Origin: a virus
Taxonomy: Duplodnaviria > Heunggongvirae > Uroviricota > Caudoviricetes
Reading direction: 5' to 3' (one strand)
Length of the DNA stretch: 64,000 bases
IMG/VR virus record: IMGVR_UViG_3300029720_000461
How positions within the stretch are numbered: position 1 is the stretch's first letter; the number at the start of each line of letters is the position of its first letter. A model generated the notes under the pieces. That model had not been told where the DNA came from. It worked only from the letters and a program-made list of their open reading frames with translations, and ran no database searches. Shown here in pieces: positions 8,820 to 41,201 of the stretch. The translations under genes and the position numbers were made by a program.

Positions 8820-8838
8820 AAAAAGGATGTGAAGCAGT

Positions 8839-10518: not shown

Positions 10519-10523
10519 AGATT

Positions 10524-11813: not shown

Positions 11814-11859
11814 CTGGTTGTTCCCCGACAGCCTATTTAGATTAAATATAAACACTCGT

Positions 11860-11933
11860 TCTGATTTAGTTTAATGGTAAAACACCTGTAGTCAAATACG
11901 GGAGATTAAGGGTTCGATTCCTTTAAGTCAGAA
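11860..11933 (+). tRNA. tRNA (paralog of tRNA-Thr at 7441) with 8-nt anticodon loop; identity uncertain
   Basis: Acceptor tctgatt/agtcaga and D arm near-identical to 7441; the best anticodon arm cctgt-agtcaaat-acggg has an 8-nt loop; one extra nt between T stem and acceptor. Confidence 0.4.
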
Positions 11934-11939
11934 TCGGTG

Positions 11940-12830: not shown

Positions 12831-13131
12831 GAAACTAACAAAGAAACAAATAATTGAATATATGAATAAATATATTCGAGGGTATTTATATGATGCTGAT
12901 TTTCACATATGTTTAGCAACAGAGTTTTTGAAATTGATTGACTGTGATGAAGTTGATATTGTTGAATATCAGAATATACCGTTAATTTTGCAGGTTATAT
13001 CTGAGCATAGTGAGACAGAAACCGCAAAATCTATTCTATGTCGCAAAACGCCTGAGTTGTATATTTCAGCATTGTTTGCAACATTAGAAAGACGTATCAA
13101 TGAGTATATTAATATGACGAAAACAGTATGA
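12829..13131 (+). CDS. hypothetical protein (paralog of 10699..11001)
   Basis: AAGGAGAA RBS; shared motifs with the 10699 ORF. Confidence 0.5.
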   Translation: MKLTKKQIIEYMNKYIRGYLYDADFHICLATEFLKLIDCDEVDIVEYQNIPLILQVISEHSETETAKSILCRKTPELYISALFATLERRINEYINMTKTV

Positions 13132-13178
13132 GTAAATCCTATAAAAACCCGGATATACATTAGAATTAAGTATTATTT

Positions 13179-13251
13179 GTGTCACTAGCTCAGTTGGTAG
13201 AGCATACGACTTTTAATCGTAGGGTCACGGGTTCAAATCCCGTGTGACACA
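13179..13251 (+). tRNA. tRNA-Lys(TTT)
   Basis: Acceptor gtgtcac/gtgacac; D arm gctcagttggtagagc; anticodon arm tacga-cttttaa-tcgta; T arm acggg-ttcaaat-cccgt. Confidence 0.8.
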
Positions 13252-13494
13252 CTTAATCCGGTACAGGATGCAGATTATAAAAGCAGAATTGTATTGGATA
13301 TCAGTGGAAATCTGAATTATTAAGTGCAATATGTAATGGGACAACGTATTGTATGATAGCTGTGATAATCAGTATTTGCGAACAAAGAACGATGGGAAAA
13401 ACATGTCAGCAGGTGCAGGGTAAGTGTGCATAGCTTATCACAGAGGTTTCGATACCAAAGGGCATGTTTTCGTTCATTCCCGAAAGGAGAAGAT

Positions 13495-16825: not shown

Positions 16826-18712
16826 ATGGATAAACAAAAATTTACTTATAAAGTATATGATGCTAAAACAAGAAGCTTCATATATGAAGAGGATTTCACA
16901 AGTGATAATCCTTTTAAAGATATAGCAGAACGGATGAGTAAAGAAGACATATCACATGGGAGTCTTTATATCGTGGCAGAAAATGAAAACGGACAGGAAG
17001 CTGCATATACGATTGTAAAGAAAAGTGGTACAAAATTCGTTAAGTATGAACATTGTGATTTTCCTTTATCATATATAGATTTTGATATTGAGCCAAGATA
17101 TCTTACATGTATTGATGAAGTGTATAACCACTATAAGTATTATGAGATAACCTTTGATAAGGATAATTTAAGGACAAATGTAAGATATGGACGTATAGGT
17201 GCTGATAAGAATGATACATTTGGTGAGCGTGAATATGATTATCCTTTATCTATGTACTGGGTTAAATATTATGAGAAATTGTCAAAAGGCTATGAAGATA
17301 AAAGTGAACTTAAGGATTTTGATAACAGGCAGAAAAAAGGAACTGAATATGAACCTGTTAAGGATAAATACTCAAAATCACTTATTGAGTTCCTTATAAG
17401 AAAGCAGAAAGACTATGTTGAAAGTAATTATTCAACCGGTGCAGCATTTTCAATGGAAGCTGTAAAAAAATCTGAAAAGATACTGGAAGAGTTAAAGGCA
17501 TATGCTGATTCATCATTTTCAAATAAACAGTTTAAAATAAGAGAACTCTTTAAGGAGCTTGTAACAATATTGCCAAGAAGAATTGCAGATGTATCAAACT
17601 ATCTTAATTATATAACAGGTTTAAGTTCTGAAGCTTTAATGGAACATATTGAACAGGAAGAAGACCTGCTTAATAACTTTAAGGACTTATATGTTAAAAA
17701 AGAAAATGAAGCTGAAGAGAAAGCTGATAATAAAGACATACTTGAAGCTAATAATTTAACAGCCACATGTACGGATTATAAAGACATACATATGATAGAA
17801 GATAAGCTTGATAAAGATATGGCGGCAATGAAGACAGTATTAGCTGTTAAAAATAAATATACTAATGACCGTTACATAGCATGTAAAAAAGAAAAAGGCA
17901 TTGAGAACAGGGGATGTCATTTATTATGGCACGGAAGCCGTACAGAAAACTGGTGGAGTATATTTAAGAATGGTTTAACACTTAATAATAACGCAATAGT
18001 AACAGGAAAGATGTTCGGACAGGGATTATACTTTGCTCCTAAAGCTGAAAAGAGTATGAATTATACATCAAGTTTAGGAAGCTATTGGACAGGCGGTAAT
18101 GATAAAACTGGCTTTATGGCGTTATATGCAGTTGCTATGGGTAAACCTTATGAAATTGACCATGCACTTAGTTCATATTTTACTGAAAAGGATTTAAAGC
18201 ATGGCTGTCATTCAGTATGGGGAAAAGCAGGAAGACATTTAAGAAATGATGAATGCATTATTTATGATGAAAGACAGTGTGACATTAAGTTTTTGCTTGA
18301 GGTTGACAGGGAAAGAGAAAAGTATCTTACACCTGAATTTATAAAAGCTGCAAGGAATATAAAACTCAATCAGTTAAAAGCAGATAAAAACGGATTAAGA
18401 GCTTATATGAGCTTAAGAACTCCTGACAGTACTTTTAGCAGACTGAATATGGATAAAAATAATAAAGTCGAATTTATTTATACTTATGATAACACACTTA
18501 CAATCAAGACATATGATAAGGAACTTAAATCAAGTGAAAAGGAACTTAAATTTAATTCATATCAGACTGATTATCTTAAAATGATGTTTAAAGAAAATTT
18601 CACTTCTAATGACAGGGAATTTGATATGTTACTTGAAGAAAAACAGAAGGAAGTACAAAAGCCAAAGACTAAAGTAAAAAAGAAAGAAATTGAAATGTCT
18701 CTGCTTGCATAA
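16826..18712 (+). CDS. WGR-like + PARP-catalytic-domain ADP-ribosyltransferase
   Basis: N-terminal YYEITFDKDNL...VRYGRIGAD (WGR-like); catalytic H-Y-E signature: LLWHGSRTENWWSIFKNGL, GQGLYFAPKAEKSMNYTS, NDECIIYDERQCDIKFLLEV (cf. PARP1 HGS / GIYFA / NEYIVYD). Confidence 0.75.
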   Translation: MDKQKFTYKVYDAKTRSFIYEEDFTSDNPFKDIAERMSKEDISHGSLYIVAENENGQEAAYTIVKKSGTKFVKYEHCDFPLSYIDFDIEPRYLTCIDEVYNHYKYYEITFDKDNLRTNVRYGRIGADKNDTFGEREYDYPLSMYWVKYYEKLSKGYEDKSELKDFDNRQKKGTEYEPVKDKYSKSLIEFLIRKQKDYVESNYSTGAAFSMEAVKKSEKILEELKAYADSSFSNKQFKIRELFKELVTILPRRIADVSNYLNYITGLSSEALMEHIEQEEDLLNNFKDLYVKKENEAEEKADNKDILEANNLTATCTDYKDIHMIEDKLDKDMAAMKTVLAVKNKYTNDRYIACKKEKGIENRGCHLLWHGSRTENWWSIFKNGLTLNNNAIVTGKMFGQGLYFAPKAEKSMNYTSSLGSYWTGGNDKTGFMALYAVAMGKPYEIDHALSSYFTEKDLKHGCHSVWGKAGRHLRNDECIIYDERQCDIKFLLEVDREREKYLTPEFIKAARNIKLNQLKADKNGLRAYMSLRTPDSTFSRLNMDKNNKVEFIYTYDNTLTIKTYDKELKSSEKELKFNSYQTDYLKMMFKENFTSNDREFDMLLEEKQKEVQKPKTKVKKKEIEMSLLA

Positions 18713-23833: not shown

Positions 23834-24361
23834 ATGGAAGATAATAAATTTACTGAACAACTATCAGGGCATGATACAACAATAACTGAAGATAAAATGG
23901 CACATTGTAAAGCTGTGGCAGAGCATATGAAGAAGGTTGCCAAGATACAGGGGAAAGATGACCTGACGGCTGATATATATTATGTAGTGGGGCTGCTGCA
24001 TGATATTGGATATCTAAGAGGCAGAAAAGAGCATGAAATAAATGGTGCGGTTATTTTAAAAGCAATGGGAATGAAAGATGAGTATGCACAGGCAATACTT
24101 AATCATGGAACTAATCCATATACTTTAAAGACAAATGAACAGACTGACATATTAATAGCATTGCAGGATGCTGATATGAGTGTAGATAAGTACGGTAGGG
24201 ATGCAGGCTTTAAGAAACGTCTTGAGGATATTAAATTAAGATACGGTGCTGATAGTGAAGCTTATGATACCGCCACCAAAACAGTTCAGTTCCTTAAAGA
24301 AAAATATAATGATGAACAGTCAAAGTCTATGAAAAGATATAGTAATTATGAAAGAATATAA
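23834..24361 (+). CDS. HD-domain phosphohydrolase
   Basis: H...HD motif: HCKAVAEHM ... GLLHDIGY ... NHG; ends YSNYERI. Confidence 0.6.
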   Translation: MEDNKFTEQLSGHDTTITEDKMAHCKAVAEHMKKVAKIQGKDDLTADIYYVVGLLHDIGYLRGRKEHEINGAVILKAMGMKDEYAQAILNHGTNPYTLKTNEQTDILIALQDADMSVDKYGRDAGFKKRLEDIKLRYGADSEAYDTATKTVQFLKEKYNDEQSKSMKRYSNYERI

Positions 24362-25699: not shown

Positions 25700-27140
25700 G
25701 ATTTTAGCCATGACTAAGTGAGCATTTACAAAAAATCAGAATATGCTGAAATATGTATTTAGTGATAAATACATAAAATAAATATGTTTTATTGAATCTC
25801 GATTACATCTTCTATTTTACATTTAAGTTTACAGATGTTTTCAATAGTTTCAAGTGAAATTATTATATTTAAGAAGGAAATGATATTATGGCAGAAAAGG
25901 CTTATAAATATAGAATATATCCAAATAAAAATCAGAAAGAACTTATTGCTAAAACATTTGGATGTTGCAGATTTGTGTATAACTATTATCTTGATAAACG
26001 AATAGAAATGTATGAGAATGATAAGACCACATTTACATATTACATGTGTTCCAAAGATTTGACACAATTGAAGAAAGAATATGAATGGCTTAAAGAACCA
26101 GATAAAGATTCTTTACAAAAGTGTTTAAAAGATTTAGATATGGCATATCAGAAATTTTTTAAGGAACATACTGGTTATCCGAAATTTAAGTCAAAAAAGA
26201 ATAGGTATCAGTCTTATAGAACAAGTTACACAAAAACAACTGCTGGCGGGAATATAATGTTTTTAAATAAACATATAAAACTTCCAAAGTTAGGATTAGT
26301 TAAAATAAGAGATAAACAAGTTCCACAAGGAAGAATATTAAATGCCACAATATCACAAGAACCAAATGGACACTACTACTGTTCTCTATGTTGTACAGAT
26401 GTAGAATTTAAACAGTTGCCAAAAACCAATCAGAATATTGGAATAGATTTAGGGCTAGTGAATTTTGCAATATTATCTGATGGAAAAACAATTGATAACC
26501 TTCATTTTTTTGAAAAATCAGAAAAGAAACTTGCTAAATTACAACGTGAATTATCAAGAAAAGCAATTGGTAGTAATCGTTGGAATAAGGTGAGAATCAA
26601 GGTTGCAAATTTACAGAAACATATTTCTAATCAAAGAAATGATTTCTTACAGAAACTCACAACAGAAATTATAAGAATGTATGATGTAATTGCTATTGAA
26701 GATTTAGATATCAAATCTATGAAAGAAACAGATTCTATCATTCGCAATAAACGAATTGGAGATGTATCTTGGTCTGAATTTCGTAGAATGTTAGAATATA
26801 AGTCTCAATGGTATGGAAAGAAATTATCTGTAATAGACAGATATTATCCTTCTTCACAAATTTGTCATTGTTGTGGTTATAAAGATGGTAGAAAATCAGA
26901 AGATATTCGGTCTTGGGCTTGTCCTAAATGTAATTCAAAATTAGATAGAGACATTAATGCTGCTATAAATATTTTGAATGAAGGATTAAGAGTTATAAAT
27001 GTTTAAATAGTATATAAGAACCGTAGGAACTACGGGGATAGCTCGGTGATACTTAACTCAATAGAGTTATTGACCGAGAATCATGTGACTTTAATCATGT
27101 GAGGTTCAAAAGCATACATTAAATTATGCTGAAGAAAAAA
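25700..27140 (+). mobile_element. IS200/IS605-family element carrying solo tnpB (no tnpA); boundaries approximate
   Basis: tnpB with hairpin-rich flanks; no Y1 transposase ORF adjacent. Confidence 0.4.
25888..27006 (+). CDS. tnpB: TnpB (IS200/IS605-family OrfB, RuvC-like RNA-guided nuclease)
   Basis: OrfB N-terminus YKYRIYPNKNQ; RuvC-I GIDLGL; C-terminal zinc finger CHCCGY...CPKCNSKLDRDINAAINI. Confidence 0.85.
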   Translation: MAEKAYKYRIYPNKNQKELIAKTFGCCRFVYNYYLDKRIEMYENDKTTFTYYMCSKDLTQLKKEYEWLKEPDKDSLQKCLKDLDMAYQKFFKEHTGYPKFKSKKNRYQSYRTSYTKTTAGGNIMFLNKHIKLPKLGLVKIRDKQVPQGRILNATISQEPNGHYYCSLCCTDVEFKQLPKTNQNIGIDLGLVNFAILSDGKTIDNLHFFEKSEKKLAKLQRELSRKAIGSNRWNKVRIKVANLQKHISNQRNDFLQKLTTEIIRMYDVIAIEDLDIKSMKETDSIIRNKRIGDVSWSEFRRMLEYKSQWYGKKLSVIDRYYPSSQICHCCGYKDGRKSEDIRSWACPKCNSKLDRDINAAINILNEGLRVINV

Positions 27141-27149
27141 TATCAGAAG

Positions 27150-27420
27150 AAGATAAGTTTAAACTGCTTGGCATTGACATAAATGTCTCTATTTCATAGA
27201 GCCATGACAGTTTATTTTATGATACTAATATCTTTGTTAAAACAAAGCTATCCAAGTTTGCCTTATGATACTAACATTTCTACTTCGTAGAACTGTACAA
27301 GTTCATTTTATGATATTTGCCTTTGGCAAATCTAATAAAGTGAACTTAAAAATTCGGTAAATCTAATAAAACAAACTTCGCATCCTAATAAAATAAACTT
27401 AAAACCACTATAACTATAGA
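27150..27420 (+). repeat. hairpin and direct-repeat cluster 3' of tnpB (omega-RNA/right-end region, iteron-like repeats)
   Basis: ttttatgatactaa x3; short 5-6-bp-stem/3-nt-loop hairpins (ctctat-ttc-atagag, tctac-ttc-gtaga, ttgcc-ttt-ggcaa); direct repeats ctaataaaRNRAACTT x3. Confidence 0.5.
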
Positions 27421-27497: not shown

Positions 27498-27749
27498 ATG
27501 AGAATTGCAAAGAGAGATGGAATTTCATTAGAAGAAATAAATAATATGTTTAAGTATGGTCAGGAAGTCAAGACAATAAGAGCAGATGTGACTTATAAAG
27601 GTATTATAAAGGAGATTTATCCGCATGTGCTTGTATGTGAATGTACAGTTGTTAATTCAGATATTGATGAAGTCAGAATTGGACTTAAACGTACATTAAC
27701 AATAAATAAAATAAGCTTTATCGGTGAAAAAGCAAATTCATATATTTAA
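27498..27749 (+). CDS. hypothetical protein
   Basis: 83-aa ORF with AAGGAGAAAAAAG RBS. Confidence 0.45.
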   Translation: MRIAKRDGISLEEINNMFKYGQEVKTIRADVTYKGIIKEIYPHVLVCECTVVNSDIDEVRIGLKRTLTINKISFIGEKANSYI

Positions 27750-27764: not shown

Positions 27765-29600
27765 ATGGACTATATAGAACACGGGCTTGCAGTACTTGCA
27801 ATTATTATGTATTTTTTTAACGGACATAAAAAGCTTGGTACTTATTCAGAAAAATTATTTAATGCATATCTGGTTGTTAATATGCTGTATCTTTTATTGG
27901 ATGCAGCATTACTTTTATGTGCTAAAAAAGCATTTAATACAGATGTTTTATGCAGGATACATACAGCAGCACTTGTTGTACTGATATACTTTATGCTTTT
28001 ATATACACTAGCTGAGACAGGAAACTTAAAACAGAATGGAAAATTGTATATTATAAATGCAGGAGTATTGATTATAACTCTTACGCTTGTATTTGTTCTG
28101 CCTGTAAAAAATGCAAGAGGATTGTCAGTGACAGCAGGACTTTTAGTGTCTCTTTATTATGTGTGCTTTATTTTTATAACAGGTATAATAAGAAACAGTG
28201 TAATGACAAAGAAAAAGATTAAAACAATGATGTTCTGGATATTGCTGTGGTATTGTGCAATAATAACAGAACTTAAGTTTTCTAACACACATGTTACAGG
28301 ATTTGCAGGATTTATGGGAGCATTGGCAGTATTTTTTGAACTGGAAAATCCCCAGACAAGGCTTGACAGATGTGGTCTGTTTAATCTTGCAGCCTTTGAA
28401 GAATATTTTCTTTACCTGAAGGATAACGGTAAAAAATGTAATCTGATATTTTTAAAGATATATGATTTATCACATGACGAAAGCCTGAAAATATCAAAGC
28501 TGATAACGGATTATCTTCTAAGCCTTGAAATTGGTTTATGCTTTAAAAAAACAGAATGCAGTTATATTATAATTGTTCCATCAAACGTATCAGTCAAATC
28601 TGTTTATGAAGATGTAAGAAAACATACAAAAACGTATGTAAAAGAAATAATGAAGGAAAGGGCTGATGAGTTTTATCCTTCTTTTACCATTGTTAAGGAT
28701 GCTGAAATAATCAATGAAGCAGCCAGACTGTTAAAACTGGTAGATGAGCAAAAAGAAGGAAAATTAAAAAAGAATGATACATATTCAGTTATGGATAAAA
28801 ATGATTTTAAATTGCAGGCTGAATATGAAAATCTGAAGAGTAAAATAGAAAAAGCTGTTAATGATGACAGGATTACAATTTTTCTACAGCCTATATACAG
28901 TACAAAAGAAAAAAGAATAATTTCAGCAGAAGTCCTTATGAGGCTTATTAATGAAAATGGAGAAGTTCTGCCACCGTATAAGTTTATAACAGCAGCAGAA
29001 AAATCAGGGCTTATCATACAGCTTGAAAGCATTGTATTTAAAAAAGCATGTGAGTTTATTAAAACACATGATATGGATGCTCTTGGGCTTAAGTATCTTG
29101 AAATTAATCTGTCTGTAAAAAAGGGTGAAAGTAAAAAGCTTGTAAAAGAATATGAAGAAATTGTCAGGGAATACGGCATTGAACATGAAAAAATAAATCT
29201 TGAAATAACTGAATCTGCTTCACTTAATGAAAAACACAGCCTGTTGGATAATATGTCGAAATTTATTGAAAAAGGAATAAAATTTTCATTAGATGATTTT
29301 GGAAGCGGTGAAAGTAACTTGAATTATATAATTGATATGCCGGTATCCATTATAAAATTTGATAAAGATATGACAGATGCATATTTTAAATCGGAAAAAG
29401 CAAAAATAGTTATGGACAGTGCAATTAATATGATACATAAGCTTGGACTAAAAACAGTTGTTGAAGGTGTTGAAACAAAGGAACAGTTTGACGCAATGTT
29501 AAAAATACAGACTGATTATATACAGGGATATTATTTTAGCAAGCCTCTTGATGTTAATGATTTTGTAGAATATGTTTTAACATCTGAAACAAAAAAATAA
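27765..29600 (+). CDS. membrane-anchored EAL-domain c-di-GMP phosphodiesterase
   Basis: About 6 N-terminal TM helices; EAL-domain motifs FLQPIYS, EVLMRL, LEITES, FSLDDFGSGESNLNY, QGYYFSKP. Confidence 0.75.
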   Translation: MDYIEHGLAVLAIIMYFFNGHKKLGTYSEKLFNAYLVVNMLYLLLDAALLLCAKKAFNTDVLCRIHTAALVVLIYFMLLYTLAETGNLKQNGKLYIINAGVLIITLTLVFVLPVKNARGLSVTAGLLVSLYYVCFIFITGIIRNSVMTKKKIKTMMFWILLWYCAIITELKFSNTHVTGFAGFMGALAVFFELENPQTRLDRCGLFNLAAFEEYFLYLKDNGKKCNLIFLKIYDLSHDESLKISKLITDYLLSLEIGLCFKKTECSYIIIVPSNVSVKSVYEDVRKHTKTYVKEIMKERADEFYPSFTIVKDAEIINEAARLLKLVDEQKEGKLKKNDTYSVMDKNDFKLQAEYENLKSKIEKAVNDDRITIFLQPIYSTKEKRIISAEVLMRLINENGEVLPPYKFITAAEKSGLIIQLESIVFKKACEFIKTHDMDALGLKYLEINLSVKKGESKKLVKEYEEIVREYGIEHEKINLEITESASLNEKHSLLDNMSKFIEKGIKFSLDDFGSGESNLNYIIDMPVSIIKFDKDMTDAYFKSEKAKIVMDSAINMIHKLGLKTVVEGVETKEQFDAMLKIQTDYIQGYYFSKPLDVNDFVEYVLTSETKK

Positions 29601-29610
29601 AGCATATTAT

Positions 29611-29639
29611 TTGACATGTGTATTTACATGTGATATATT
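29611..29639 (+). promoter_or_regulatory. putative sigma70-type promoter
   Basis: ttgaca-17 bp-tatatt upstream of the 29693 gene. Confidence 0.4.
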
Positions 29640-29692
29640 AAAAATATATTATAACGCTGTATACAAATAACTTTGTTTAAGAGGAATTAATT

Positions 29693-30304
29693 ATGTTAAT
29701 GATTATAACAGGAAAAAGTGCAAGTGGAAAAGACACCATAAAGAAAGAATTAGTAAAAAAGGATTATGAGCCTGTATTAAGCCTGACTACAAGGCAGCCA
29801 AGAGAAGGTGAAAAGTACGGGTTAGATTATATATACACAGTAAACGAATATTTTGAAAGCTTATTAGAGCAGGATAAATTATATGAAAGCAGAAAAGCAG
29901 GAAATATATATTATGGTACATTAAAATCAGACCTTGATATGGTAAAGCATAATCCTGAAAAAAATTATATAATGATAAAAGACCTTGAAGGTGCTGAAGA
30001 TATAATTGACTATATAGGGCAGAAGAATGTATTTGTCGCATACATAGATGTATCAGATGATATAAGAAAGAAAAGAGCATCTATACGCAATGATTTTTCT
30101 GAAGAGAAATGGAATGAAAGGCTTGAATCGGATAATAAGCAGTTCACACATGAAAATATAGACAAAGTAGTTGATGTAATCTTTTATAACAATAAGGATA
30201 TGGACAATCTGGTAAAGGATATAGATGAAACTATGAGCAGGATAAAAGCTAATATATCAGTACCAAAAGGAAGATTCAGAGACACATTTGATAGAGAACT
30301 ATAA
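29693..30304 (+). CDS. guanylate-kinase-like nucleoside-monophosphate kinase
   Basis: P-loop ITGKSASGKDT; GMP-binding-like LTTRQPREGEKYGLDYIY. Confidence 0.6.
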   Translation: MLMIITGKSASGKDTIKKELVKKDYEPVLSLTTRQPREGEKYGLDYIYTVNEYFESLLEQDKLYESRKAGNIYYGTLKSDLDMVKHNPEKNYIMIKDLEGAEDIIDYIGQKNVFVAYIDVSDDIRKKRASIRNDFSEEKWNERLESDNKQFTHENIDKVVDVIFYNNKDMDNLVKDIDETMSRIKANISVPKGRFRDTFDREL

Positions 30305-31238: not shown

Positions 31239-32798
31239 ATGGGAATTGGAATTACTATTGGAGTTGTAGCAGTTGTATTAATTGCGTTATTATTTGCAAG
31301 TTATATTAAAGCTCCGACAGACAAGGCACTTATTGTATCAGGACTTAGAAAGACACCTAAGTATGTAATTGGAAGGTCATCACTTAAGATACCATTTTTA
31401 CAGAGAGTTGATAAACTTGATTTAAAGATGATTTCCGTTGATGTTAAGACAAAGGAATCAGTACCAACAAATGAGTATATCAATGTTAATATTGATTCTG
31501 CTGTAAAGATTAAGGTTGGTTCATCACCTGAAATGCTTGGAAAGGCTGCAAGTAACTTCCTTAATAAGAACTCAGATTATATCAGAGAATCAGTTGTAGA
31601 TGTGCTTGAAGGTAATGTCCGTGAAATTATAGGACAGATGAAGCTTGAGGATATTGTACAGGACAGAAAGTTATTTGCTGAAAAGGTACAGGAGAATGCT
31701 GCTCCTGATATGGAAAGAATGGGTCTTGAAATTGTAAGCTTTAATGTTCAGAATGTTACTGATGAAGGTAATGTTATTGAAAACCTTGGTATTGACAGGG
31801 TTGTAAGTATCAGTAAGTCAGCACAGATATCAAGAGCAGAATCAGAAAGAGATATTGCAGTTGCAAAAGCTAATGCTGAAAAGCAGGCTAATGATGCAAG
31901 GATTGAAGCTGAGACAGCTATTGCAGAAAGAAATAACGAACTTGAGATTAAGAAGCAGGAATTAAAGAGAGCAGCAGATGTCAAGAAGGCTGAAGCTGAT
32001 GCGGCATATGAAATCCAGCAGCAGGAACAGAGAAAGACAATTGAAATCACTACTGCCAATGCTAATATTGCAAAGCAGGAGAAAGAGATTGAATTAAGAG
32101 AAAAGGAAATCACTGTTAAGGAAAAGACACTTGATGCTGATATCCGTAAGCAGGCTGAAGCTGAAAAGTATGCAGCACAGCAGAAGGCAGATGCAGAACT
32201 TTATCAGAGACAGAAGGAAGCAGAAGCAAAGCAGTTTGAAATTCAGAAGCAGGCTGAAGCCAAGAAATCACAGGCAGAAGCAGACAGATTTGCTAAGGAG
32301 CAGGAAGCTGAAGCAGTTAAGGCACAGGGCTTTGCTGAAGCAGAGAGTATTAAGGCTAAGGGTGTTGCTGATGCTGAAAGTATTAAAGCAAAGGGATTAG
32401 CTGAAGCTGAAGCTATGGAGAAGAAAGCAGATGCCATGTCTAAGTATGGTAAAGCTGCCATGACTGAAATGATTATCAAGGTACTTCCTGAGATGGCAGG
32501 AGCTATTGCAAAGCCATTAGAAGCTATTGATAAGGTAACAATTATTGACAGTGGTAATGGAGAAACCGGAGTAGGTTCATTCAGTGGTAATGTACCATCA
32601 GTACTTGCTAAGACAATTGAATCCGTTAAGGAAACAACCGGTTTTGACCTTACAGAAGTCATGAAGGCTAATACATATGATGCCAAGACTACTAAGAATG
32701 TGAATTTTACAGGACTTCCGGAAGATGCTGACCCGGAGATTAAGGTAACTGTAAAGAATATTCCTGAAAAGGTATCTAAAACAGAAAAGAATAAGTAA
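31239..32798 (+). CDS. flotillin / SPFH (band-7) family membrane protein
   Basis: N-terminal TM then SPFH-like region (KALIVSGLRK...VDVKT) and long EA-rich coiled coil typical of FloT/YuaG. Confidence 0.7.
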   Translation: MGIGITIGVVAVVLIALLFASYIKAPTDKALIVSGLRKTPKYVIGRSSLKIPFLQRVDKLDLKMISVDVKTKESVPTNEYINVNIDSAVKIKVGSSPEMLGKAASNFLNKNSDYIRESVVDVLEGNVREIIGQMKLEDIVQDRKLFAEKVQENAAPDMERMGLEIVSFNVQNVTDEGNVIENLGIDRVVSISKSAQISRAESERDIAVAKANAEKQANDARIEAETAIAERNNELEIKKQELKRAADVKKAEADAAYEIQQQEQRKTIEITTANANIAKQEKEIELREKEITVKEKTLDADIRKQAEAEKYAAQQKADAELYQRQKEAEAKQFEIQKQAEAKKSQAEADRFAKEQEAEAVKAQGFAEAESIKAKGVADAESIKAKGLAEAEAMEKKADAMSKYGKAAMTEMIIKVLPEMAGAIAKPLEAIDKVTIIDSGNGETGVGSFSGNVPSVLAKTIESVKETTGFDLTEVMKANTYDAKTTKNVNFTGLPEDADPEIKVTVKNIPEKVSKTEKNK

Positions 32799-36104: not shown

Positions 36105-36527
36105 ATGTTAGAACCAATCACATTACACGAACTTGAAAATTTTTTAGGAGCATTAGCCGGTGTTGCAGAACCTTCTAAGATTATTATTGAAGAAATTCCA
36201 CTTGAAAAAGTAAAGCACTGCAATCACTGTAACAATTGTAAGACAGCTCCAAAGCAACAACCCGAAGCATTGTCACCTGTGAAGAATGTTATTTTTGATG
36301 CACCTTACACAACTGTTATATGGAAAGATGGTACAAGAACTATATCAAAGTGGCATGGTGAAGGCTTTAATAAGTATGCAGGTTTTACCGCATGTATTGC
36401 CAAGAAGTATCTTGGAACATCACTTTTTAAGCAGGAACTTTCAAGGTGGTGCAAAGACACAAAGGAAGATATGAATAAAGATGCATCCGGTTTTTCAGAG
36501 TATTTAAAGGCAATTGATATAAGATGA
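36105..36527 (+). CDS. hypothetical protein
   Basis: 140-aa ORF with AAAGGAAGGAA RBS. Confidence 0.5.
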   Translation: MLEPITLHELENFLGALAGVAEPSKIIIEEIPLEKVKHCNHCNNCKTAPKQQPEALSPVKNVIFDAPYTTVIWKDGTRTISKWHGEGFNKYAGFTACIAKKYLGTSLFKQELSRWCKDTKEDMNKDASGFSEYLKAIDIR

Positions 36528-37252
36528 AAAGAACCAATTATACAGTATTAAAAATAGTAGCAGTACTTACCATGATTGCAGGAGATATGGGATATCTGTT
36601 TATACATTATTTAAGTGATACATGGATAATGATTATGGCTGCGGTGGGAAATTTATCTTTCCCACTGTTTGCCTTTATGCTCACAGAAAGTTTTTTAAGA
36701 TGCAGGAATAAGAACAGATACAAGTATAAATTAATTACACTTATATTATTAGCGGTATTAAGTGAAATACCATTCAACATATTTGTATCAGGCATGTGGA
36801 AATATCCTTTTAAAAACAATGTGTGTTTCACACTTTTTTTAGGATTCCTTATGCTCATATTGCTTGATAAAGACTGGCTGCAAATATGCAGATATTTTAA
36901 AAAGCATAAGAAGCTAAAAAAAATATACAGTTTTTTAATTAAAACAGTAATAACAAGTACATTTATGCTTGTAAATTATTTGTTGTGCAATGATTATTCA
37001 TATACAGGAATACTTCTTATAGCACTTTTTTATTTGTTTAGAAATCATAAGCTGTTAAGGGCGGTACTGCCACTTTTAATACTTATTATATCTGAAGCAA
37101 ATATTCTTTATATACCGGTCATTATTGATATGATTCTAATAGCAATATATGACAGCAAAGATGTAAATATGCCAAAGCCTTTTAAATACGGATTAAGATG
37201 TATATATCCGGTGATGTTAAGCATTATGGCAGTCATAAGTAAAATAATTTAA
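36524..37252 (+). CDS. polytopic membrane protein, TraX-like
   Basis: About 7 TM helices; N-terminus LKIVAVLTMIAGDMGYLF resembles the TraX-family start (LK.IA...M..DH.G). Confidence 0.35.
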   Translation: MKRTNYTVLKIVAVLTMIAGDMGYLFIHYLSDTWIMIMAAVGNLSFPLFAFMLTESFLRCRNKNRYKYKLITLILLAVLSEIPFNIFVSGMWKYPFKNNVCFTLFLGFLMLILLDKDWLQICRYFKKHKKLKKIYSFLIKTVITSTFMLVNYLLCNDYSYTGILLIALFYLFRNHKLLRAVLPLLILIISEANILYIPVIIDMILIAIYDSKDVNMPKPFKYGLRCIYPVMLSIMAVISKII

Positions 37253-37275
37253 TTACAATGGAAGGATTAAATATT

Positions 37276-37455
37276 ATGGAAAAAGAATTTTATTCAATCA
37301 GAGAATTACAGACAATATTCGGATGCGGCAGAAATAAGATATATCAGATTGTGAGAACAGAAGAGTTTCCTAAAATTATGATAGGAAAGAAAATCTATAT
37401 ACCTATTAATGAATTTAATGAATGGAAGAAAAAGCATATAGGAGCAAAAGTATGA
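37276..37455 (+). CDS. excisionase-type (MerR-like HTH_17) DNA-binding protein
   Basis: YSIRELQTIFGCGRNKIYQIVRTEEFPKIMIGKKIYIPINEFNEWKK matches the Xis/AlpA-type HTH pattern; start set at the second ATG with GGAAGGA RBS. Confidence 0.55.
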   Translation: MEKEFYSIRELQTIFGCGRNKIYQIVRTEEFPKIMIGKKIYIPINEFNEWKKKHIGAKV

Positions 37456-37751
37456 TTTTAAAAGAATACTGTGATAGATTAAAAAACATATTGGAAGAAC
37501 ACGAACAGGTATACACAAGGATAGCACCTACTTTTATATGGCTGTATGACATTAATACAAAGCCTGTAGGAGCGATTGAAGTTACACCGTATGGAGCATG
37601 TAAGGGAATCAATTTTATTGACAAGGAAAAGGGCATTATGGCAGGTAAAAAAATGCCTGAAGAAAAAATAAAAGAAATACAGGAAAAAGAAATAATTTCA
37701 GTAAACGGTGGCAGCAGATATGGTTTTTTGGAAATGTATTTAAGGGAATGA
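37452..37751 (+). CDS. hypothetical protein
   Basis: ATGA overlap with the upstream stop. Confidence 0.4.
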   Translation: MILKEYCDRLKNILEEHEQVYTRIAPTFIWLYDINTKPVGAIEVTPYGACKGINFIDKEKGIMAGKKMPEEKIKEIQEKEIISVNGGSRYGFLEMYLRE

Positions 37752-37755
37752 TGAT

Positions 37756-38331
37756 ATGGGAAAAATGATAGCAATAGACGGAAGTACAACTAAAACCGGA
37801 ATAGCTGTTTTTAATTTGAACAGCAAAAAACTTTGTATGCATACTGTAATAGCACCTGATAATATCGTAAAGCCTCTTTCAAAAAAAGACAGAAAAGGAT
37901 TAACGAAAACTCAGCTAAAAATCAGGCAGAGACAGATAAAGAAAGAAAATATCGACTACCGTATATCTGAAATGATTAAAGAGCTGGATAAGGTGTTTAA
38001 TGACTATATGCCGGAAGTAATTGTTATGGAAGATACATATGCAAATAAAGATATGTATGCATATAAAAAATTATGTCATTTACAAGGGCTTGTCCTTAGT
38101 TATTGCATAACAAAAAAAGTAACATTTATATTAAAACCGCCTCAAAGCTGGCGGAAGGATTTAGACTTTGAAATTACTGAAAATGGGATGCAGCATACCA
38201 GAAAAGATTATAAACTTATGTCCGTTAAATACATTAAGGATAAGTATGGTATAGAAGTGACAGATGATGAAGCTGATGCGATATGCATAGGAGACAGTTA
38301 TTTTGCATCAGTGCAAAGAGACCAGCTTTAA
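37756..38331 (+). CDS. RuvC-like Holliday-junction resolvase
   Basis: MIAIDGSTTKTGIAVF (RuvC motif I), EVIVMEDTY, DEADAICIGDSYFA (RuvC C-terminal catalytic Asp). Confidence 0.65.
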   Translation: MGKMIAIDGSTTKTGIAVFNLNSKKLCMHTVIAPDNIVKPLSKKDRKGLTKTQLKIRQRQIKKENIDYRISEMIKELDKVFNDYMPEVIVMEDTYANKDMYAYKKLCHLQGLVLSYCITKKVTFILKPPQSWRKDLDFEITENGMQHTRKDYKLMSVKYIKDKYGIEVTDDEADAICIGDSYFASVQRDQL

Positions 38332-38466
38332 ATAAGTTTAATTCATTTATACTTGTTTATACTTGTATACTTATATACTTATTCATACTTATGTATTCAC
38401 ATATAAGTTTATGCCTTCAAACATTCTGAATGGTAAATATATTTTGATGCTATAAAGGAGCTACAT

Positions 38467-39645
38467 ATGTTTGATAAGAAAAATAAAACATCTGATACAA
38501 AAGAAAATTCAACAGACAAGGAATTTGCAGCATTAAAAGAAAAAGACAAAAACAATCAGCAGGATAAAATGTCTATTGAAGAATTAATTAACAACATAAA
38601 AGATACATTATTTATAGAACTTACAGAAGAGATGAATGATGATTCAATTACTGATATAGAATGGGATGGTGACTGTCTATGGCTTAAACAGATAGGCACA
38701 GGATGTTATTTATCGCCTAAAAAGTTGTCAAAAAATTATGTTGATAACTTGGCAATCCGTTTAAGTAATATCATGGGAAGAAATTTCAATCAGGCAAACC
38801 CTGTACTGGAAGCAGATACAAAAACACTCCGTATATCAATTACACATGAAAGCAGAAGTGGGAAAAAATCAATTACAATCAGAAAGCTGCCGGTTGTAAT
38901 GAGATACGGACATGAAGATTTGGTAAATGCAGGAACTATTCCTGAAAAGCTTCTGAATCTTTTAGAAAACTGTGTAATAGCACACTGCACCGTGCTGATA
39001 GGTGGTACACCACAGGCAGGAAAGACAGAACTGCTTAAATACCTTACCAACTTTATACCGGCAAATGAAAAGGTTATGACAATTGAAGATAATTCAGAGA
39101 TTCATTATAAGGAGCTTCATCCAAATAAAAACTGTACGCCGTTTATCGTTGATAAAAGGTTTGGATACTCAGAGGCTATCAAGATGTCTTTAAGGCATAA
39201 CACCGACTGGGTACTGATTTCAGAATCACGAGGCAAAGAAGTTAAGGAACTGATTAACGTACTCAATACAGGTCTGCATTGTATGACAACCCTTCATCTT
39301 GATGAAGTAAGTGATATACCTGACAGATTATTTAGTATGCTTGAAGACCAGAAGAACAGCAGATTTATTGATAACGTATATAAATACATTGATGTTGGAC
39401 TTGTAATTGCTGTTGATAAAAAGCAGGAAAGAAAAATTATTGATTTTGGCTTTTTTGAGCGTAATGAAACAGGCAATCATTACAGACCTTTTTATAACAT
39501 AGATGACGGAGTAATTCCTGAAAAGGACATGCTTCCTGAAAACATGAAGAAGATATTTAAAAGGGCGGGAATAGATAATCCATATGAAAGACCAAAAGCT
39601 TGTGCAGGAGCAATACCGGTAGAAAAGGAAAGGAGTGCTGAGTAA
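38467..39645 (+). CDS. CpaF/TadA/VirB11-family secretion ATPase
   Basis: Walker A GGTPQAGKTE; TIEDNSEI (Asp box); His-box-like region; family-typical N-terminal domain. Confidence 0.7.
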   Translation: MFDKKNKTSDTKENSTDKEFAALKEKDKNNQQDKMSIEELINNIKDTLFIELTEEMNDDSITDIEWDGDCLWLKQIGTGCYLSPKKLSKNYVDNLAIRLSNIMGRNFNQANPVLEADTKTLRISITHESRSGKKSITIRKLPVVMRYGHEDLVNAGTIPEKLLNLLENCVIAHCTVLIGGTPQAGKTELLKYLTNFIPANEKVMTIEDNSEIHYKELHPNKNCTPFIVDKRFGYSEAIKMSLRHNTDWVLISESRGKEVKELINVLNTGLHCMTTLHLDEVSDIPDRLFSMLEDQKNSRFIDNVYKYIDVGLVIAVDKKQERKIIDFGFFERNETGNHYRPFYNIDDGVIPEKDMLPENMKKIFKRAGIDNPYERPKACAGAIPVEKERSAE

Positions 39646-41201
39646 TGGAAGGAAATATAAAAACAACATATGATAATGATAAAAAGCCTAATCTGTTTGA
39701 AGAAAAACTGGTGCAGATATTACATTATTTTTCATTCAAGCAAATGAAGAAAGATATCTATGATTACGGATACAGCATTTCACCTTTTAAATATTTCCTT
39801 GGATTTGTGGTCGGAATAATTCTTGTTGCAGCATACTGTATATTCAGTAAGCTTGATTTTGTATACATAATATTTGAAATTGTACTTCTGATATGCCTTA
39901 TGCCATTTATAGTAAGAACGAAATTTAAAGGAATGTATCAGGAAAAAAGATTTAATGAAGTTGATATATACCTGCATCAGATGATTTTTTCATTTCAGAA
40001 GCAGCCTAAAATATTATCTTCATTGGAAGATACAGAGAAGGTAAGTACAGGAAAGTTAAAAAATGTAATAAGAAAAGCAATAATCTGTTTAAGACAGACA
40101 GAAGCAGCGGATGCATATGAAGAAGCTCTTGATATCATATACAAGGCATATCCAAATGACCGAATAAAAAACTTAAATAAGTTTATGATACAGATTGAAA
40201 GACAGGGCGGTAATTATGGAACTTCACTTGATATTCTGCTAGGGGATATTGATAACTGGGTAAACAGAACATATAAGGAACAGACAACTGTTAAAACAAT
40301 AAAGACCACGATTGTTATAGGAACAATAATAAGTTTTATCATTTCCAGTGCAAGTATGATATTTTCAATAATAATACATTACAATGATACCATGTCAATT
40401 ATGAGTTTAGGAAATCTTGAAGACATATTATTATATCAGGTAACTACTGCTATATTTATAGCCGCAAGTATGCTGTTTTTAATATATGCCTTTACAAAAT
40501 ATAATTATGACTGGATTACAAAATCGGTTGATGAAAAAAGCGTTCTAAGAAATTACAAAAACGCAACAGACTTTAATCCGACAGTTTTCAGAATAAAAAG
40601 CATTCCTGTATATCTTGTATTTGCGTCTGTGTCATTGTCAATGTTTTTTATTAATGCAGTACCGTACAACAAAGGAATATCTGTATTTTTAGGTATATTT
40701 ACATTTTATCTTATAATCAGTCCGTCATTTACCAAAAAGAGTGCTTATAAGATAACACAGAAAAATATACAGAACTCATTTTCAGAGTGGTTGAGAGATG
40801 TATCAATTAATCTTCAGAGAGAACCGTTATTATCAGCTGTAACAGACAGCTATGAAAACTGTCCTGTCGCAATAAAGCCGGAGCTTGAAATATTTATCAG
40901 ACGAATACAGGAAGAGCCTACGGCAGTTGAACCGTATTATGAGTTCTTGGCTAGATTTCATTTAACTGATGTATCAAGTGCCGTGCGAAATCTTTATTCA
41001 TTGTCAGATATGGATGATGAACGTAAGGAAGAAAACCTTGGACAGCTCACAAAGCGTAATTATGCAATAATTAATGACAATGAGATAAAATCAATGAATG
41101 ACACAACATCTGCAATGCGTTTTTCTGAATACATACCAGTGTTTATTGCATGTGGAAAGCTTGCATTTGATATTATGAATCTTTTGGAATGTATGATGTA
41201 A
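39645..41201 (+). CDS. TadB/TadC-like (T2SS-F family) polytopic membrane protein
   Basis: 518 aa, several TM-helix clusters, directly downstream of and coupled to the CpaF-like ATPase. Confidence 0.45.
   Translation: MEGNIKTTYDNDKKPNLFEEKLVQILHYFSFKQMKKDIYDYGYSISPFKYFLGFVVGIILVAAYCIFSKLDFVYIIFEIVLLICLMPFIVRTKFKGMYQEKRFNEVDIYLHQMIFSFQKQPKILSSLEDTEKVSTGKLKNVIRKAIICLRQTEAADAYEEALDIIYKAYPNDRIKNLNKFMIQIERQGGNYGTSLDILLGDIDNWVNRTYKEQTTVKTIKTTIVIGTIISFIISSASMIFSIIIHYNDTMSIMSLGNLEDILLYQVTTAIFIAASMLFLIYAFTKYNYDWITKSVDEKSVLRNYKNATDFNPTVFRIKSIPVYLVFASVSLSMFFINAVPYNKGISVFLGIFTFYLIISPSFTKKSAYKITQKNIQNSFSEWLRDVSINLQREPLLSAVTDSYENCPVAIKPELEIFIRRIQEEPTAVEPYYEFLARFHLTDVSSAVRNLYSLSDMDDERKEENLGQLTKRNYAIINDNEIKSMNDTTSAMRFSEYIPVFIACGKLAFDIMNLLECMM

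What the first reader, a model, noticed from the sequence alone, without database searches (positions are those of the whole stretch)
27765..30304. Element-encoded c-di-GMP turnover pair: membrane EAL phosphodiesterase and guanylate-kinase-like gene
A membrane-anchored EAL phosphodiesterase with complete catalytic motifs (EVLMRL, LEITES, DDFGSG, QGYYF) is followed directly, behind its own promoter, by a guanylate-kinase-like NMP kinase (TTRQPREGE..GLDY). Together they could lower host c-di-GMP and recycle the GMP product. This would reprogram host biofilm and motility state, or blunt cyclic-nucleotide-based defences.
Basis: partly seen in the sequence, partly recalled or inferred. Interest (0 to 1): 0.55.

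Follow-up and report, generated by a model that had tools for sequence, protein, structure and literature searches.

The report
Adjacent EAL phosphodiesterase and guanylate kinase genes
A giant, unclassified mobile element from human gut metagenomes carries an intact membrane-bound c-di-GMP phosphodiesterase gene next to an intact guanylate kinase gene, but nothing beyond their adjacency suggests they work together, and each gene type is already common on plasmids or phages.

Summary
Both genes are real, intact and under purifying selection (dN/dS about 0.10 and 0.12). The 611-aa protein is a multi-pass membrane domain, then a degenerate GGDEF-like domain, then an EAL domain with every catalytic motif present. 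Its nearest relatives outside this element lineage are full-length chromosomal proteins of Lachnospiraceae (33-36% identity). The 203-aa protein is a divergent guanylate kinase with P-loop, GMP-site and LID residues intact. Its nearest relatives are housekeeping gmk genes of Clostridia and guanylate kinases of large Firmicute phages.

The "c-di-GMP turnover pair" reading is not supported.
- EAL enzymes release pGpG, not GMP, and the window has no Orn/NrnA-type nuclease, GGDEF, PilZ, HD-GYP or c-di-GMP riboswitch.
- The partner gene is absent from 14 viral EAL loci, 80 viral kinase loci and 16 chromosomal loci.
- A mosaic relative of the element carries a paralogous EAL gene with no kinase nearby.
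- A conserved promoter-like site lies between the two genes.

They are most likely two independent cargo genes. One is a signal-gated c-di-GMP phosphodiesterase. The other supplies GDP/dGDP for replication. Host and element class are unresolved. This is an ordinary finding on an interesting element.

The parts
27498..27749 (+). Conserved 83-aa ORF of unknown function, ending 15 nt before the EAL start codon. Probably co-transcribed with the EAL gene.
   Evidence: Present immediately upstream of the EAL gene in every related contig that reaches it. No Pfam, PHROG or PADLOC hit.
27765..29600 (+). 611-aa membrane protein with a degenerate GGDEF-like domain and an EAL domain. Predicted signal-regulated c-di-GMP phosphodiesterase.
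   Evidence: dN/dS 0.10.
27765..28340 (+). N-terminal multi-pass membrane domain, residues 1-192 with about 7 helices. No known sensor family assigned.
   Evidence: AlphaFold helices at 2-20, 27-54, 60-85, 88-111, 120-142, 149-171 and 178-192. Hydropathy. Conserved across Lachnospiraceae homologs. dN/dS 0.12.
28350..28757 (+). Middle alpha/beta domain, residues 196-331, with a GGDEF-like fold but no GG(D/E)EF motif. KKTEC probably occupies the signature position (my reading of the family consensus). Presumably non-catalytic and regulatory.
   Evidence: Foldseek aligns 430-470 columns to tandem GGDEF-EAL structures: 4rnh, 5m3c (TM 0.71) and DosP. No Pfam GGDEF hit. No GGDEF-like motif.
28842..29546 (+). 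EAL domain (Pfam residues 360-594) with a complete catalytic set: E389, R393, N448, E480, E483, D510, D511, K531, E567, Q587.
   Evidence: Matches solved EAL domains at TM about 0.9 and rmsd 2.2-2.6 A.
29611..29639 (+). Promoter-like site TTGACA-17-(TG-n)TATATT in the 92-bp intergenic gap. Possible separate promoter for the kinase gene.
   Evidence: Both hexamers are unchanged in the diverged variant L030. Not experimentally supported.
29680..29685 (+). Shine-Dalgarno-like AGAGGA, 7 nt upstream of the kinase ATG.
   Evidence: Read directly from the sequence.
29693..30304 (+). 203-aa divergent guanylate kinase with a C-terminal extension of about 20 aa.
   Evidence: dN/dS 0.12.

Best explanation
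These are two independent cargo genes that happen to be neighbours in a variable block of a giant (contigs 0.19-0.7 Mb, one of 1.59 Mb), 30% GC, mosaic mobile element from human gut metagenomes. Its host is probably a low-GC Bacillota.

Gene 1 encodes a membrane-bound phosphodiesterase with a multi-pass sensor domain, a degenerate GGDEF-like domain and an EAL domain. It was captured from, or shares ancestry with, a chromosomal family of Lachnospiraceae/Clostridia. I infer that it hydrolyses host c-di-GMP to pGpG when its membrane domain is triggered by an unknown signal. That would push the host toward the low-c-di-GMP state.

Gene 2 encodes a divergent but catalytically complete guanylate kinase, probably transcribed from its own promoter. 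I infer that it raises GMP/dGMP to GDP/dGDP flux for replication and transcription of the very large element, as guanylate kinases of large Firmicute phages are thought to do.

Shown: gene integrity, domain architecture, conserved catalytic residues, purifying selection, and lack of recurrent pairing. Inferred: both enzyme activities, the physiological effect and the host.
For: - EAL catalytic set is complete and invariant across the family.
- Confident model (pLDDT 86.7) matches solved GGDEF-EAL tandems and EAL domains.
- Full-length homologs at 33-36% identity occur in Lachnospiraceae MAGs, in housekeeping contexts without gmk.
- The kinase keeps the P-loop, R34, R37, E40, Y46, Y74/G75, R128, R132 and R143, plus Ser30 and Glu64 as in cellular Gmk.
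- The kinase's nearest relatives are housekeeping gmk genes in yicC-remA-rpoZ-gmk-priA-def-fmt contexts, and phage guanylate kinases (phrog_1815, 87 phage records).
- In Enterococcus phage 9183 the guanylate kinase lies among Pol III alpha, dUTPase, RusA and topoisomerase IV genes.
- No partner gene within 6 kb in 14 + 80 viral loci, or in the 16 other loci L014-L029 (flanks 5-10 kb).
- EAL proteins match at least 5000 plasmid records and 69 phage records.
- An intact EAL paralog without a kinase occurs in a relative that is 90% identical in nucleotide sequence where the two align.
- A conserved promoter-like site lies between the genes.
- No Orn/NrnA, GGDEF, PilZ or HD-GYP domain, and no c-di-GMP riboswitch, in the window.
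Against: - The two genes are adjacent, on the same strand and with no terminator between them in all 22 related loci that cover both. Indels occur on both sides (TnpB in place of an AAA ATPase upstream; extra or missing small ORFs downstream) but never separate them.
- Those loci are close variants of one lineage, so this is weak evidence, but it is compatible with a unit.
- The mosaic relative L139 lacks both genes at the flotillin locus, which also fits gain or loss as a block.
- Both enzymes act on guanine nucleotides.
- The host is unknown, so it is not shown that c-di-GMP signalling exists in it.
- Loop 6 of the EAL domain reads DDFGSGESN rather than the usual DFG(T/A)GYSS, so activity is predicted, not certain.
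Confidence: 0.6

Rival explanations
1. One reading: a functional c-di-GMP turnover pair. The EAL enzyme lowers host c-di-GMP and the adjacent kinase recycles the guanine nucleotide product to GDP.
For: Invariant adjacency on the same strand, with no terminator, in all 22 related loci. Both enzymes look catalytically competent. The kinase keeps cellular-type guanine-recognition residues.
Against: The EAL product is pGpG, not GMP (product complexes 5mfu and 3u2e; established knowledge that Orn/NrnA-type nucleases are needed). No such nuclease was found in any window ORF tested. c-di-GMP pools are micromolar against millimolar guanine nucleotide pools, so recycling would be quantitatively trivial (my own knowledge). 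The pairing is not seen in 110 loci of relatives, in chromosomal contexts or in phage 9183. An EAL paralog in the same element family has no kinase nearby. A conserved promoter-like site separates the genes.
Confidence: 0.1
2. Anti-defence enzyme: the EAL protein destroys c-di-GMP made by CdnE-type CBASS systems that signal to TIR-STING effectors, protecting the element when it enters a new host.
For: The gene is on a mobile element among other nucleotide-directed genes: a PARP-like ADP-ribosyltransferase with WGR, and an HD hydrolase. The element family carries more than one EAL paralog. That bacterial STING senses c-di-GMP is my own knowledge and was not tested here.
Against: The protein keeps the full membrane-sensor plus GGDEF-like architecture of a chromosomal signalling family, unlike known small soluble anti-CBASS nucleases. 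No PADLOC hits nearby. No evidence about host defence content.
Confidence: 0.05
3. The EAL domain is a non-catalytic c-di-GMP receptor, as in LapD or FimX, that couples c-di-GMP binding to the membrane domain.
For: The GGDEF-like domain is degenerate, as in LapD and FimX, and those proteins are among the structural matches. Loop 6 deviates from the consensus.
Against: Every metal-binding and catalytic residue that is lost in LapD and FimX is retained here and invariant in the family. Sequence scores to active enzymes (DosP, MorA, 108-112 bits) far exceed those to FimX and LapD (42-57 bits).
Confidence: 0.07
4. The kinase is a regulatory bypass rather than a simple booster: a (p)ppGpp-insensitive guanylate kinase that keeps GTP/dGTP synthesis running when the Firmicute host's stringent response shuts down its own Gmk. 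Alternatively, it may prefer dGMP or a modified nucleotide.
For: It diverges strongly from housekeeping Gmk (35-38% identity; TIGR03263 86 bits against a cut-off of 160) and has a C-terminal extension. The S. aureus Gmk entry 4qrh is among the sequence matches. That it is a ppGpp complex, and that Firmicute Gmk is a (p)ppGpp target, is my own knowledge.
Against: No sequence feature examined here speaks to (p)ppGpp sensitivity. The GMP-site residues where (p)ppGpp binds are all conserved. The host is unknown.
Confidence: 0.15

Closest known systems
Membrane-anchored GGDEF-EAL / EAL c-di-GMP phosphodiesterases (e.g. E. coli DosP, P. aeruginosa MorA, RbdA and PA0575; uncharacterised 625-640 aa Lachnospiraceae 'EAL domain-containing proteins')
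   Same: EAL TIM-barrel with the complete catalytic set. A GGDEF-like domain precedes it and an N-terminal sensor module precedes that. Full-length collinearity with the Lachnospiraceae family at 33-36% identity.
   Different: The GGDEF domain has lost its signature motif. The membrane domain matches no Pfam sensor family. The gene is carried on a giant mobile element, not a chromosome. Loop 6 reads DDFGSGESN.
Plasmid- and phage-borne EAL proteins (e.g. 'EAL domain-containing protein' of Enterobacteriaceae conjugative plasmids; phrog_11823; Citrobacter phage Chris1 'diguanylate cyclase/phosphodiesterase')
   Same: c-di-GMP turnover genes carried as cargo on mobile elements are very common: at least 5000 plasmid records, 2741 of them conjugative, and 69 phage records.
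   Different: Only 25-45% identity, mostly restricted to the EAL domain. Different hosts (mostly Proteobacteria) and different N-terminal modules.
Guanylate kinases of large Firmicute phages (phrog_1815; Enterococcus phage 9183, Staphylococcus phages PMBT8 and Fi4S2)
   Same: Short (about 175-200 aa) divergent Gmk-fold kinases encoded by large mobile genomes of low-GC Gram-positives. Profile match 1.5e-37.
   Different: 29-31% identity. The window protein keeps the cellular-type Ser30 and Glu64 guanine contacts, which the two phage proteins aligned here lack. It has a 20-aa C-terminal extension. It sits next to an EAL gene, not in a replication module.
Housekeeping Gmk of Clostridia (TIGR03263)
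   Same: Nearest sequence relatives outside the element (35-38% identity). All catalytic and GMP-site residues are shared.
   Different: Scores below the equivalog cut-off (86 against 160 bits). It is not in the rpoZ/remA/priA neighbourhood.
Giant human-associated elements: Inocles (oral, about 32% GC, 245-395 kb), Hodor megaplasmids (gut, 44-47% GC), Jug phages (gut, 27-30% GC, 360-402 kb)
   Same: Very large, prevalent and previously unbinned. One-strand gene blocks, IS elements, RecD-like helicase and surface-protein genes as in Inocles. GC and habitat as in Jug phages (PMC12340149, PMC12934698, PMC12880540).
   Different: Hodor is excluded by GC. Inocles are rare in faeces, whereas these contigs come from gut metagenomes. 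No virion gene, InoC-like gene or VirB4/VirD4 was seen in the window. Contigs reach 0.5-0.7 Mb. Membership of any of the three is unproven.

Membership tests
EAL-domain c-di-GMP phosphodiesterase (catalytically active class) | Pfam PF00563 match above the gathering score | tested here: met
   197 bits against 31.3, covering 234 of 236 profile positions.
EAL-domain c-di-GMP phosphodiesterase (catalytically active class) | Complete metal-binding and catalytic residue set: E of EAL, R, N, ExxE, DD, K, E of EGVE, Q | tested here: met
   E389, R393, N448, E480, E483, D510, D511, K531, E567 and Q587 are present, invariant in 40 homologs, and aligned to DosP and MorA.
EAL-domain c-di-GMP phosphodiesterase (catalytically active class) | Loop 6 motif DFG(T/A)GYSS | tested here: inconclusive
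   The sequence is DDFGSGESN: D, F, G, G and S are kept, but Y is replaced by E and the last S by N. The Y position is variable in this family. DosP, described as a phosphodiesterase, has F there.
EAL-domain c-di-GMP phosphodiesterase (catalytically active class) | EAL TIM-barrel fold | tested here: met
   Foldseek target TM about 0.9 and rmsd 2.2-2.6 A to BifA, MorA, TBD1265 and PdeA EAL domains. Model pLDDT 86.7.
EAL-domain c-di-GMP phosphodiesterase (catalytically active class) | Hydrolysis of c-di-GMP to pGpG | not testable with these tools
   Requires an enzyme assay.
GGDEF diguanylate cyclase | GG(D/E)EF active-site motif and a Pfam GGDEF match | tested here: not met
   No such motif anywhere in the protein. 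No Pfam GGDEF hit at E <= 0.01. Only the fold is GGDEF-like.
Guanylate kinase (Gmk) | Pfam PF00625 match above the gathering score | tested here: met
   57.3 bits against 25.2, profile positions 5-180 of 182.
Guanylate kinase (Gmk) | NCBIfam equivalog TIGR03263 cut-off (housekeeping Gmk) | tested here: not met
   86.4 bits against a cut-off of 160.45.
Guanylate kinase (Gmk) | P-loop, GMP-binding residues (yeast S34, R38, R41, Y50, E69, Y78, S/T80, D100) and LID arginines | tested here: met
   Alignment to 1ex6, 2j41 and 1z6g. G7, G12, K13, R34, R37, E40, Y46, Y74, G75, R128, R132 and R143 are invariant with housekeeping and phage kinases. S30, E64 and T76 are present.
Guanylate kinase (Gmk) | Housekeeping genomic context (remA/rpoZ/priA neighbourhood in Clostridia) | tested here: not met
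   The nearest homologs have that context. The window gene lies between an EAL gene and small ORFans.
Phage guanylate kinase family phrog_1815 | Profile match over the full length | tested here: met
   1.5e-37, 130.8 bits, residues 1-187 on profile positions 4-189 of 197.
Hypothetical 'c-di-GMP turnover pair' (EAL + Gmk as a functional module) | Adjacency recurring in independent lineages | tested here: not met
   0 of 14 viral EAL loci, 0 of 80 viral kinase loci and 0 of 16 other loci contain both genes. The pairing is seen only in close variants of one lineage.
Hypothetical 'c-di-GMP turnover pair' (EAL + Gmk as a functional module) | Product of enzyme 1 is the substrate of enzyme 2, or the bridging enzyme is encoded alongside | tested here: not met
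   The EAL product is pGpG (5mfu, 3u2e). No DHH/DHHA1, Orn-type or HD-GYP domain in any window ORF tested.
Hypothetical 'c-di-GMP turnover pair' (EAL + Gmk as a functional module) | Co-transcription | tested here: inconclusive
   No terminator-like site between the genes, but a conserved 11-of-12 extended -10 promoter-like site lies in the gap. No expression data.
Inocle giant extrachromosomal elements | InoC marker (about 454 aa, PF13814), VirB4/VirD4, oral habitat, about 32% GC | tested here: inconclusive
   GC of 30% and one-strand gene blocks fit. No PF13814, VirB4 or VirD4 in the 64-kb window, but most of the element lies outside the window. The contigs are from gut metagenomes, whereas Inocles are rare in faeces (PMC12340149).
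Hodor conjugative megaplasmids | GC 44.6-47.1% | tested here: not met
   The window is 27-37% GC throughout. Hodor values are from PMC12934698.
Jug jumbo gut phages | 360-402 kb, 27-30% GC, virion and terminase genes, Bacteroides/Phocaeicola host | tested here: inconclusive
   GC and gut prevalence fit. No virion hallmark in the window. Contigs of 0.5-0.7 Mb exceed the Jug size range. The best homologs of both genes are from Clostridia, not Bacteroidota.

The most novel reading that the evidence does not exclude
The 83-aa ORF, the EAL gene and the kinase gene form an anti-defence or host-takeover cassette. The EAL enzyme would erase c-di-GMP used as an immune signal (CdnE-type CBASS with STING effectors), or as the host's surface-behaviour switch, on entry of the giant element. 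The kinase, possibly insensitive to (p)ppGpp, would keep guanine nucleotide supply uncoupled from host control. EAL paralogs in sister elements would then reflect an arms race.
Probability: 0.05. Interest if true: 0.65.

Novelty: new member of a known kind. Interest (0 to 1): 0.22.

Why it matters
As a "turnover pair", very little. Mobile-element EAL phosphodiesterases and phage guanylate kinases are both well-known kinds of cargo, and nothing beyond adjacency links them here. The modest value is that a very prevalent giant gut element, present in over 1000 index blocks yet absent from every GTDB representative genome scanned, carries a selectively maintained, sensor-linked c-di-GMP phosphodiesterase. 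A mosaic relative carries a second paralog. This suggests the element family adjusts its host's c-di-GMP-controlled behaviours. That could be tested once the host is identified.

Tried and rejected
1. Apparent truncation of the EAL gene in the 92%-identical variant L030. Rejected: the scaffold has N-gaps, and the gene aligns along its length at 90-94% nucleotide identity.
2. Identifying the element as an Inocle, Hodor or Jug phage from the literature. Hodor is excluded by GC. The other two remain unproven, and no supplementary tables were available.
3. Host identification:
   - The GTDB genome scan found only Treponema EAL domains at 37%.
   - tblastn of the RecD-like helicase against plasmids gave only matches below 30% identity.
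   - The TnpB search gave 99%-identical copies only on the element itself, plus one 2.7-kb 'Cetobacterium sp.' contig in the same 90% cluster.
   - A megablast of L137 against phages found nothing informative.
   The host stays unresolved.
4. Megablast of 20 kb around the finding against phages and plasmids found only IS and flotillin fragments.
5. Search for virion genes, and for Orn/NrnA, GGDEF, PilZ and HD-GYP domains, in the window ORFs tested, plus a c-di-GMP riboswitch search. All negative.
6. PADLOC scan of the pair and its neighbours. Only a marginal HD-to-Cas3 HD-domain resemblance.
7. Looking for a second EAL gene just past the window end in the window's own lineage. None within 10 kb.
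8. Considered and rejected: the 175-aa HD protein at 23834-24361 as an HD-GYP enzyme. It is an HDIG-type HD domain without a GYP motif (and direct reading), and it lies 3.4 kb away behind a DnaJ-domain gene and the TnpB insertion.
Full report
**Observation**

The first ORF matches Pfam EAL at 197 bits over residues 360-594. The second matches Pfam Guanylate_kin at 57 bits over its whole length. Every quoted motif is present.

The 92-bp gap contains TTGACA, a 17-nt spacer, then TG-n-TATATT, at 29611-29639. This is the best + strand promoter-like site in the 4.3 kb scanned. No terminator-like hairpin lies between the genes. An AGAGGA ribosome-binding site sits 7 nt before the kinase ATG. Promoter-like matches are frequent in this AT-rich DNA (46 found, 26 expected), so the promoter remains a plausible inference.

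**The EAL protein**

A 40-sequence alignment gave an AlphaFold model with mean pLDDT 86.7. It has seven helices in residues 2-192, an alpha/beta domain at 196-331, and a C-terminal barrel.

- *Middle domain.* Foldseek's best matches are tandem GGDEF-EAL structures (MorA 4rnh, PA0575 5m3c at target TM 0.71, DosP), aligned over 430-470 columns. Isolated EAL domains match at TM about 0.9 and rmsd 2.2-2.6 A. The middle domain therefore has a GGDEF-like fold. It has no GG(D/E)EF motif and no Pfam GGDEF hit, so it is degenerate.
- *Catalytic residues.* E389, R393, N448, E480, E483, D510, D511, K531, E567 and Q587 are all present and invariant across the family.
- *Caveat.* Loop 6 reads DDFGSGESN instead of the usual DFG(T/A)GYSS.
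- *Score comparison.* Scores to active enzymes (DosP, MorA; about 110 bits) greatly exceed those to the degenerate receptors FimX and LapD (42-57 bits).
- *Relatives.* Apart from its own 98% cluster, the closest relatives are 625-640 aa proteins, 33-36% identical over 96-99% of the length. The named ones come from Lachnospiraceae MAGs such as Blautia and Acetatifactor. They sit in ordinary chromosomal contexts with no guanylate kinase nearby.

**The kinase**

It aligns end to end with solved guanylate kinases. It retains the P-loop, the GMP-site residues (yeast S34, R38, R41, Y50, E69, Y78, S/T80, D100 equivalents) and the LID arginines.

It scores below the housekeeping equivalog cut-off (TIGR03263, 86 against 160 bits). 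It matches the phage family phrog_1815 strongly (1.5e-37).

Its nearest relatives outside the element are bona fide housekeeping gmk genes of low-GC Clostridia, 35-38% identical, in yicC-remA-rpoZ-gmk-priA-def-fmt neighbourhoods.

Eighty-seven phage records encode homologs, mainly large phages of Staphylococcus, Enterococcus, Bacillus and Listeria. In Enterococcus phage 9183 the gene lies among Pol III alpha, dUTPase, RusA and topoisomerase IV genes.

**Selection**

A variant with about 7-10% nucleotide divergence (L030) allowed a dN/dS estimate:

| Region | dN/dS |
|---|---|
| EAL gene, whole | 0.10 |
| Membrane domain | 0.12 |
| GGDEF-like domain | 0.07 |
| EAL domain | 0.11 |
| Kinase gene | 0.12 |

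The promoter-like hexamers in the gap are unchanged in that variant. Both genes are therefore functional and maintained.

**Is it a pair?**

Four lines of evidence say no.

1. *Chemistry.* EAL domains produce linear 5'-pGpG, as in the product complexes among the structural matches (5mfu, 3u2e). Conversion to GMP needs an Orn/NrnA-type nuclease (established knowledge). No such domain was found in any window ORF tested. Nor was any GGDEF, PilZ or HD-GYP domain, or any c-di-GMP riboswitch at Rfam gathering scores.
2. *Co-occurrence.* Within 6 kb, 0 of 14 IMG/VR loci with EAL homologs have a kinase, and 0 of 80 loci with kinase homologs have an EAL gene. None of 16 other loci has both.
3. *The element family itself.*
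   - IMG/VR contig UViG_3300045988_184161 (244 kb) shares window 59069-61838 at 90% nucleotide identity.
   - It also shares the flotillin gene (98% amino-acid identity), ORF 42854 and the giant surface protein.
   - It has neither this EAL gene nor this kinase upstream of flotillin.
   - Instead it has an intact paralogous EAL protein (623 aa, 37% identity) elsewhere, with no kinase within 6 kb.
4. *Transcription signal.* A conserved promoter-like site separates the two genes.

In favour of linkage, the 83-aa ORF, the EAL gene and the kinase gene stay together in all 22 related loci, despite indels on both sides. Those loci are close variants of one lineage, so this evidence is weak.

**The element**

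The window is 30% GC, with strong GC skew and all genes on one strand. It contains:

- a RecD-like helicase
- a PARP-like protein with a WGR domain
- an HD hydrolase and a DnaJ-domain protein
- a TnpB insertion
- a flotillin
- TraX with a T2SSE-type ATPase and a T2SSF-type platform protein
- a 2613-aa protein with Listeria-Bacteroides repeats
- DUF932, an SLT transglycosylase and a Dda/PIF1-like helicase
- a 7-tRNA array with a full-length ROOL RNA

No virion gene was found.

The exact kinase sequence occurs in 1031 index blocks. Contigs carrying the locus range from 188 kb to 709 kb, plus one of 1.59 Mb. Several are explicitly labelled human gut metagenome. No GTDB representative genome contains it.

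It is not a Hodor megaplasmid, which has 44-47% GC (PMC12934698). It resembles Inocles in organisation, but Inocles are oral and rare in faeces (PMC12340149). It resembles Jug phages in GC and prevalence, but I found no shared gene content (PMC12880540). Element class and host remain open. The best homologs of both genes point to Clostridia.

**Most likely mechanism**

- *Gene 1.* A signal-gated c-di-GMP phosphodiesterase of host-like architecture that lowers host c-di-GMP.
- *Gene 2.* A guanylate kinase that supports nucleotide supply for a very large replicon, possibly with altered regulation.

The two activities, and any physiological effect, are inferred. The architecture, residue conservation, selection and lack of recurrent pairing are shown.

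**Comparison and verdict**

EAL proteins on plasmids (at least 5000 records) and phages (69 records), and guanylate kinases on phages (87 records), are established kinds of cargo. This locus is a new member of each kind, not a new system.

- Observation: confirmed.
The individual functions are supported. The coupling and the anti-defence role are not.
- Interest: low, about 0.2.
- Most novel reading not excluded: an anti-CBASS or host-takeover cassette, at about 5% probability.

The surrounding giant element is more interesting than this gene pair.

Noticed in passing
window 11997-12589 (+); tRNAs at 7250-13252: A full-length ROOL RNA (RF03087, 331.6 bits) lies inside an array of 7 tRNA genes: Thr-TGT, Met-CAT, Pro-TGG, Phe-GAA, Lys-TTT, and two with abnormal anticodon loops at 7250 and 11860. 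A PD-(D/E)XK gene (11284) and a PIN7-domain gene (13426) are interspersed.
   Followed up: partly
whole window; loci L001-L013, L034-L042, L145-L148: The window belongs to a very prevalent, unbinned giant element of the human gut. The exact kinase sequence is in 1031 index blocks. Contigs run from 188 to 709 kb, plus one of 1.59 Mb (GCA_964261755.1). It is absent from every GTDB representative genome scanned. It has no virion genes in 64 kb and does not match the GC of Hodors or the habitat of Inocles.
   Followed up: partly
L044 5977-7848 (IMGVR_UViG_3300045988_184161, 244 kb): A mosaic relative of the element (90% nucleotide identity to window 59069-61838) carries a second, intact paralog of the membrane EAL protein (623 aa, 37% identity). 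It sits in a different neighbourhood with no kinase. The window's own lineage has no such gene within 10 kb past the window end.
   Followed up: yes
window 25888-27006 (TnpB) and flanks about 25700-27150: The IS200/IS605-type TnpB is an insertion polymorphism. Sister contigs have an AAA ATPase (370 aa) and a 209-aa gene at this site, or TnpB plus the 209-aa gene. A 99%-identical TnpB cluster includes one short contig labelled Cetobacterium sp..
   Followed up: partly
window 31239-32798; L137, L138: The flotillin gene (SPFH/Band 7 + Flot) is 97-98% identical at the protein level to genes on otherwise unrelated 95-103 kb IMG/VR contigs. This indicates recent exchange of this single gene between different elements. 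Those contigs also carry a distant (26%) guanylate kinase homolog about 6 kb downstream.
   Followed up: partly
window 16826-18712: A 628-aa protein with a WGR domain and a PARP catalytic domain (PF00644, 1.7e-22), a eukaryote-like poly(ADP-ribose) polymerase architecture. It is split into two ORFs in one variant (L034).
   Followed up: no
window 36524-41201 and 45426-53267: A pilus- or secretion-like cluster (TraX, HTH_17, RuvC-like protein, T2SSE-type ATPase, T2SSF-type platform protein) is followed by a 2613-aa protein with Listeria-Bacteroides repeats. This suggests a surface or transfer apparatus. The cluster is missing from the mosaic relative L139.
   Followed up: no
window 59659-61820; L145 14752-16502: A family of paralogous small ORFs (140, 144 and 131 aa; 33-43% identical to each other) follows a DUF5052 gene. 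Called genes of the same sizes recur about 5 kb further downstream in the same lineage; their sequences were not compared.
   Followed up: no
window 27498-27749: An 83-aa ORFan ends 15 nt before the EAL start codon. It is conserved in every related contig and is probably the first gene of the EAL transcription unit. It has no detectable homology.
   Followed up: partly
window 23834-24361: A 175-aa HDIG-type HD-domain protein (not HD-GYP) lies 3.4 kb upstream of the EAL gene. It shows a marginal resemblance to Cas3 HD domains in PADLOC. Its substrate is unknown.
   Followed up: partly
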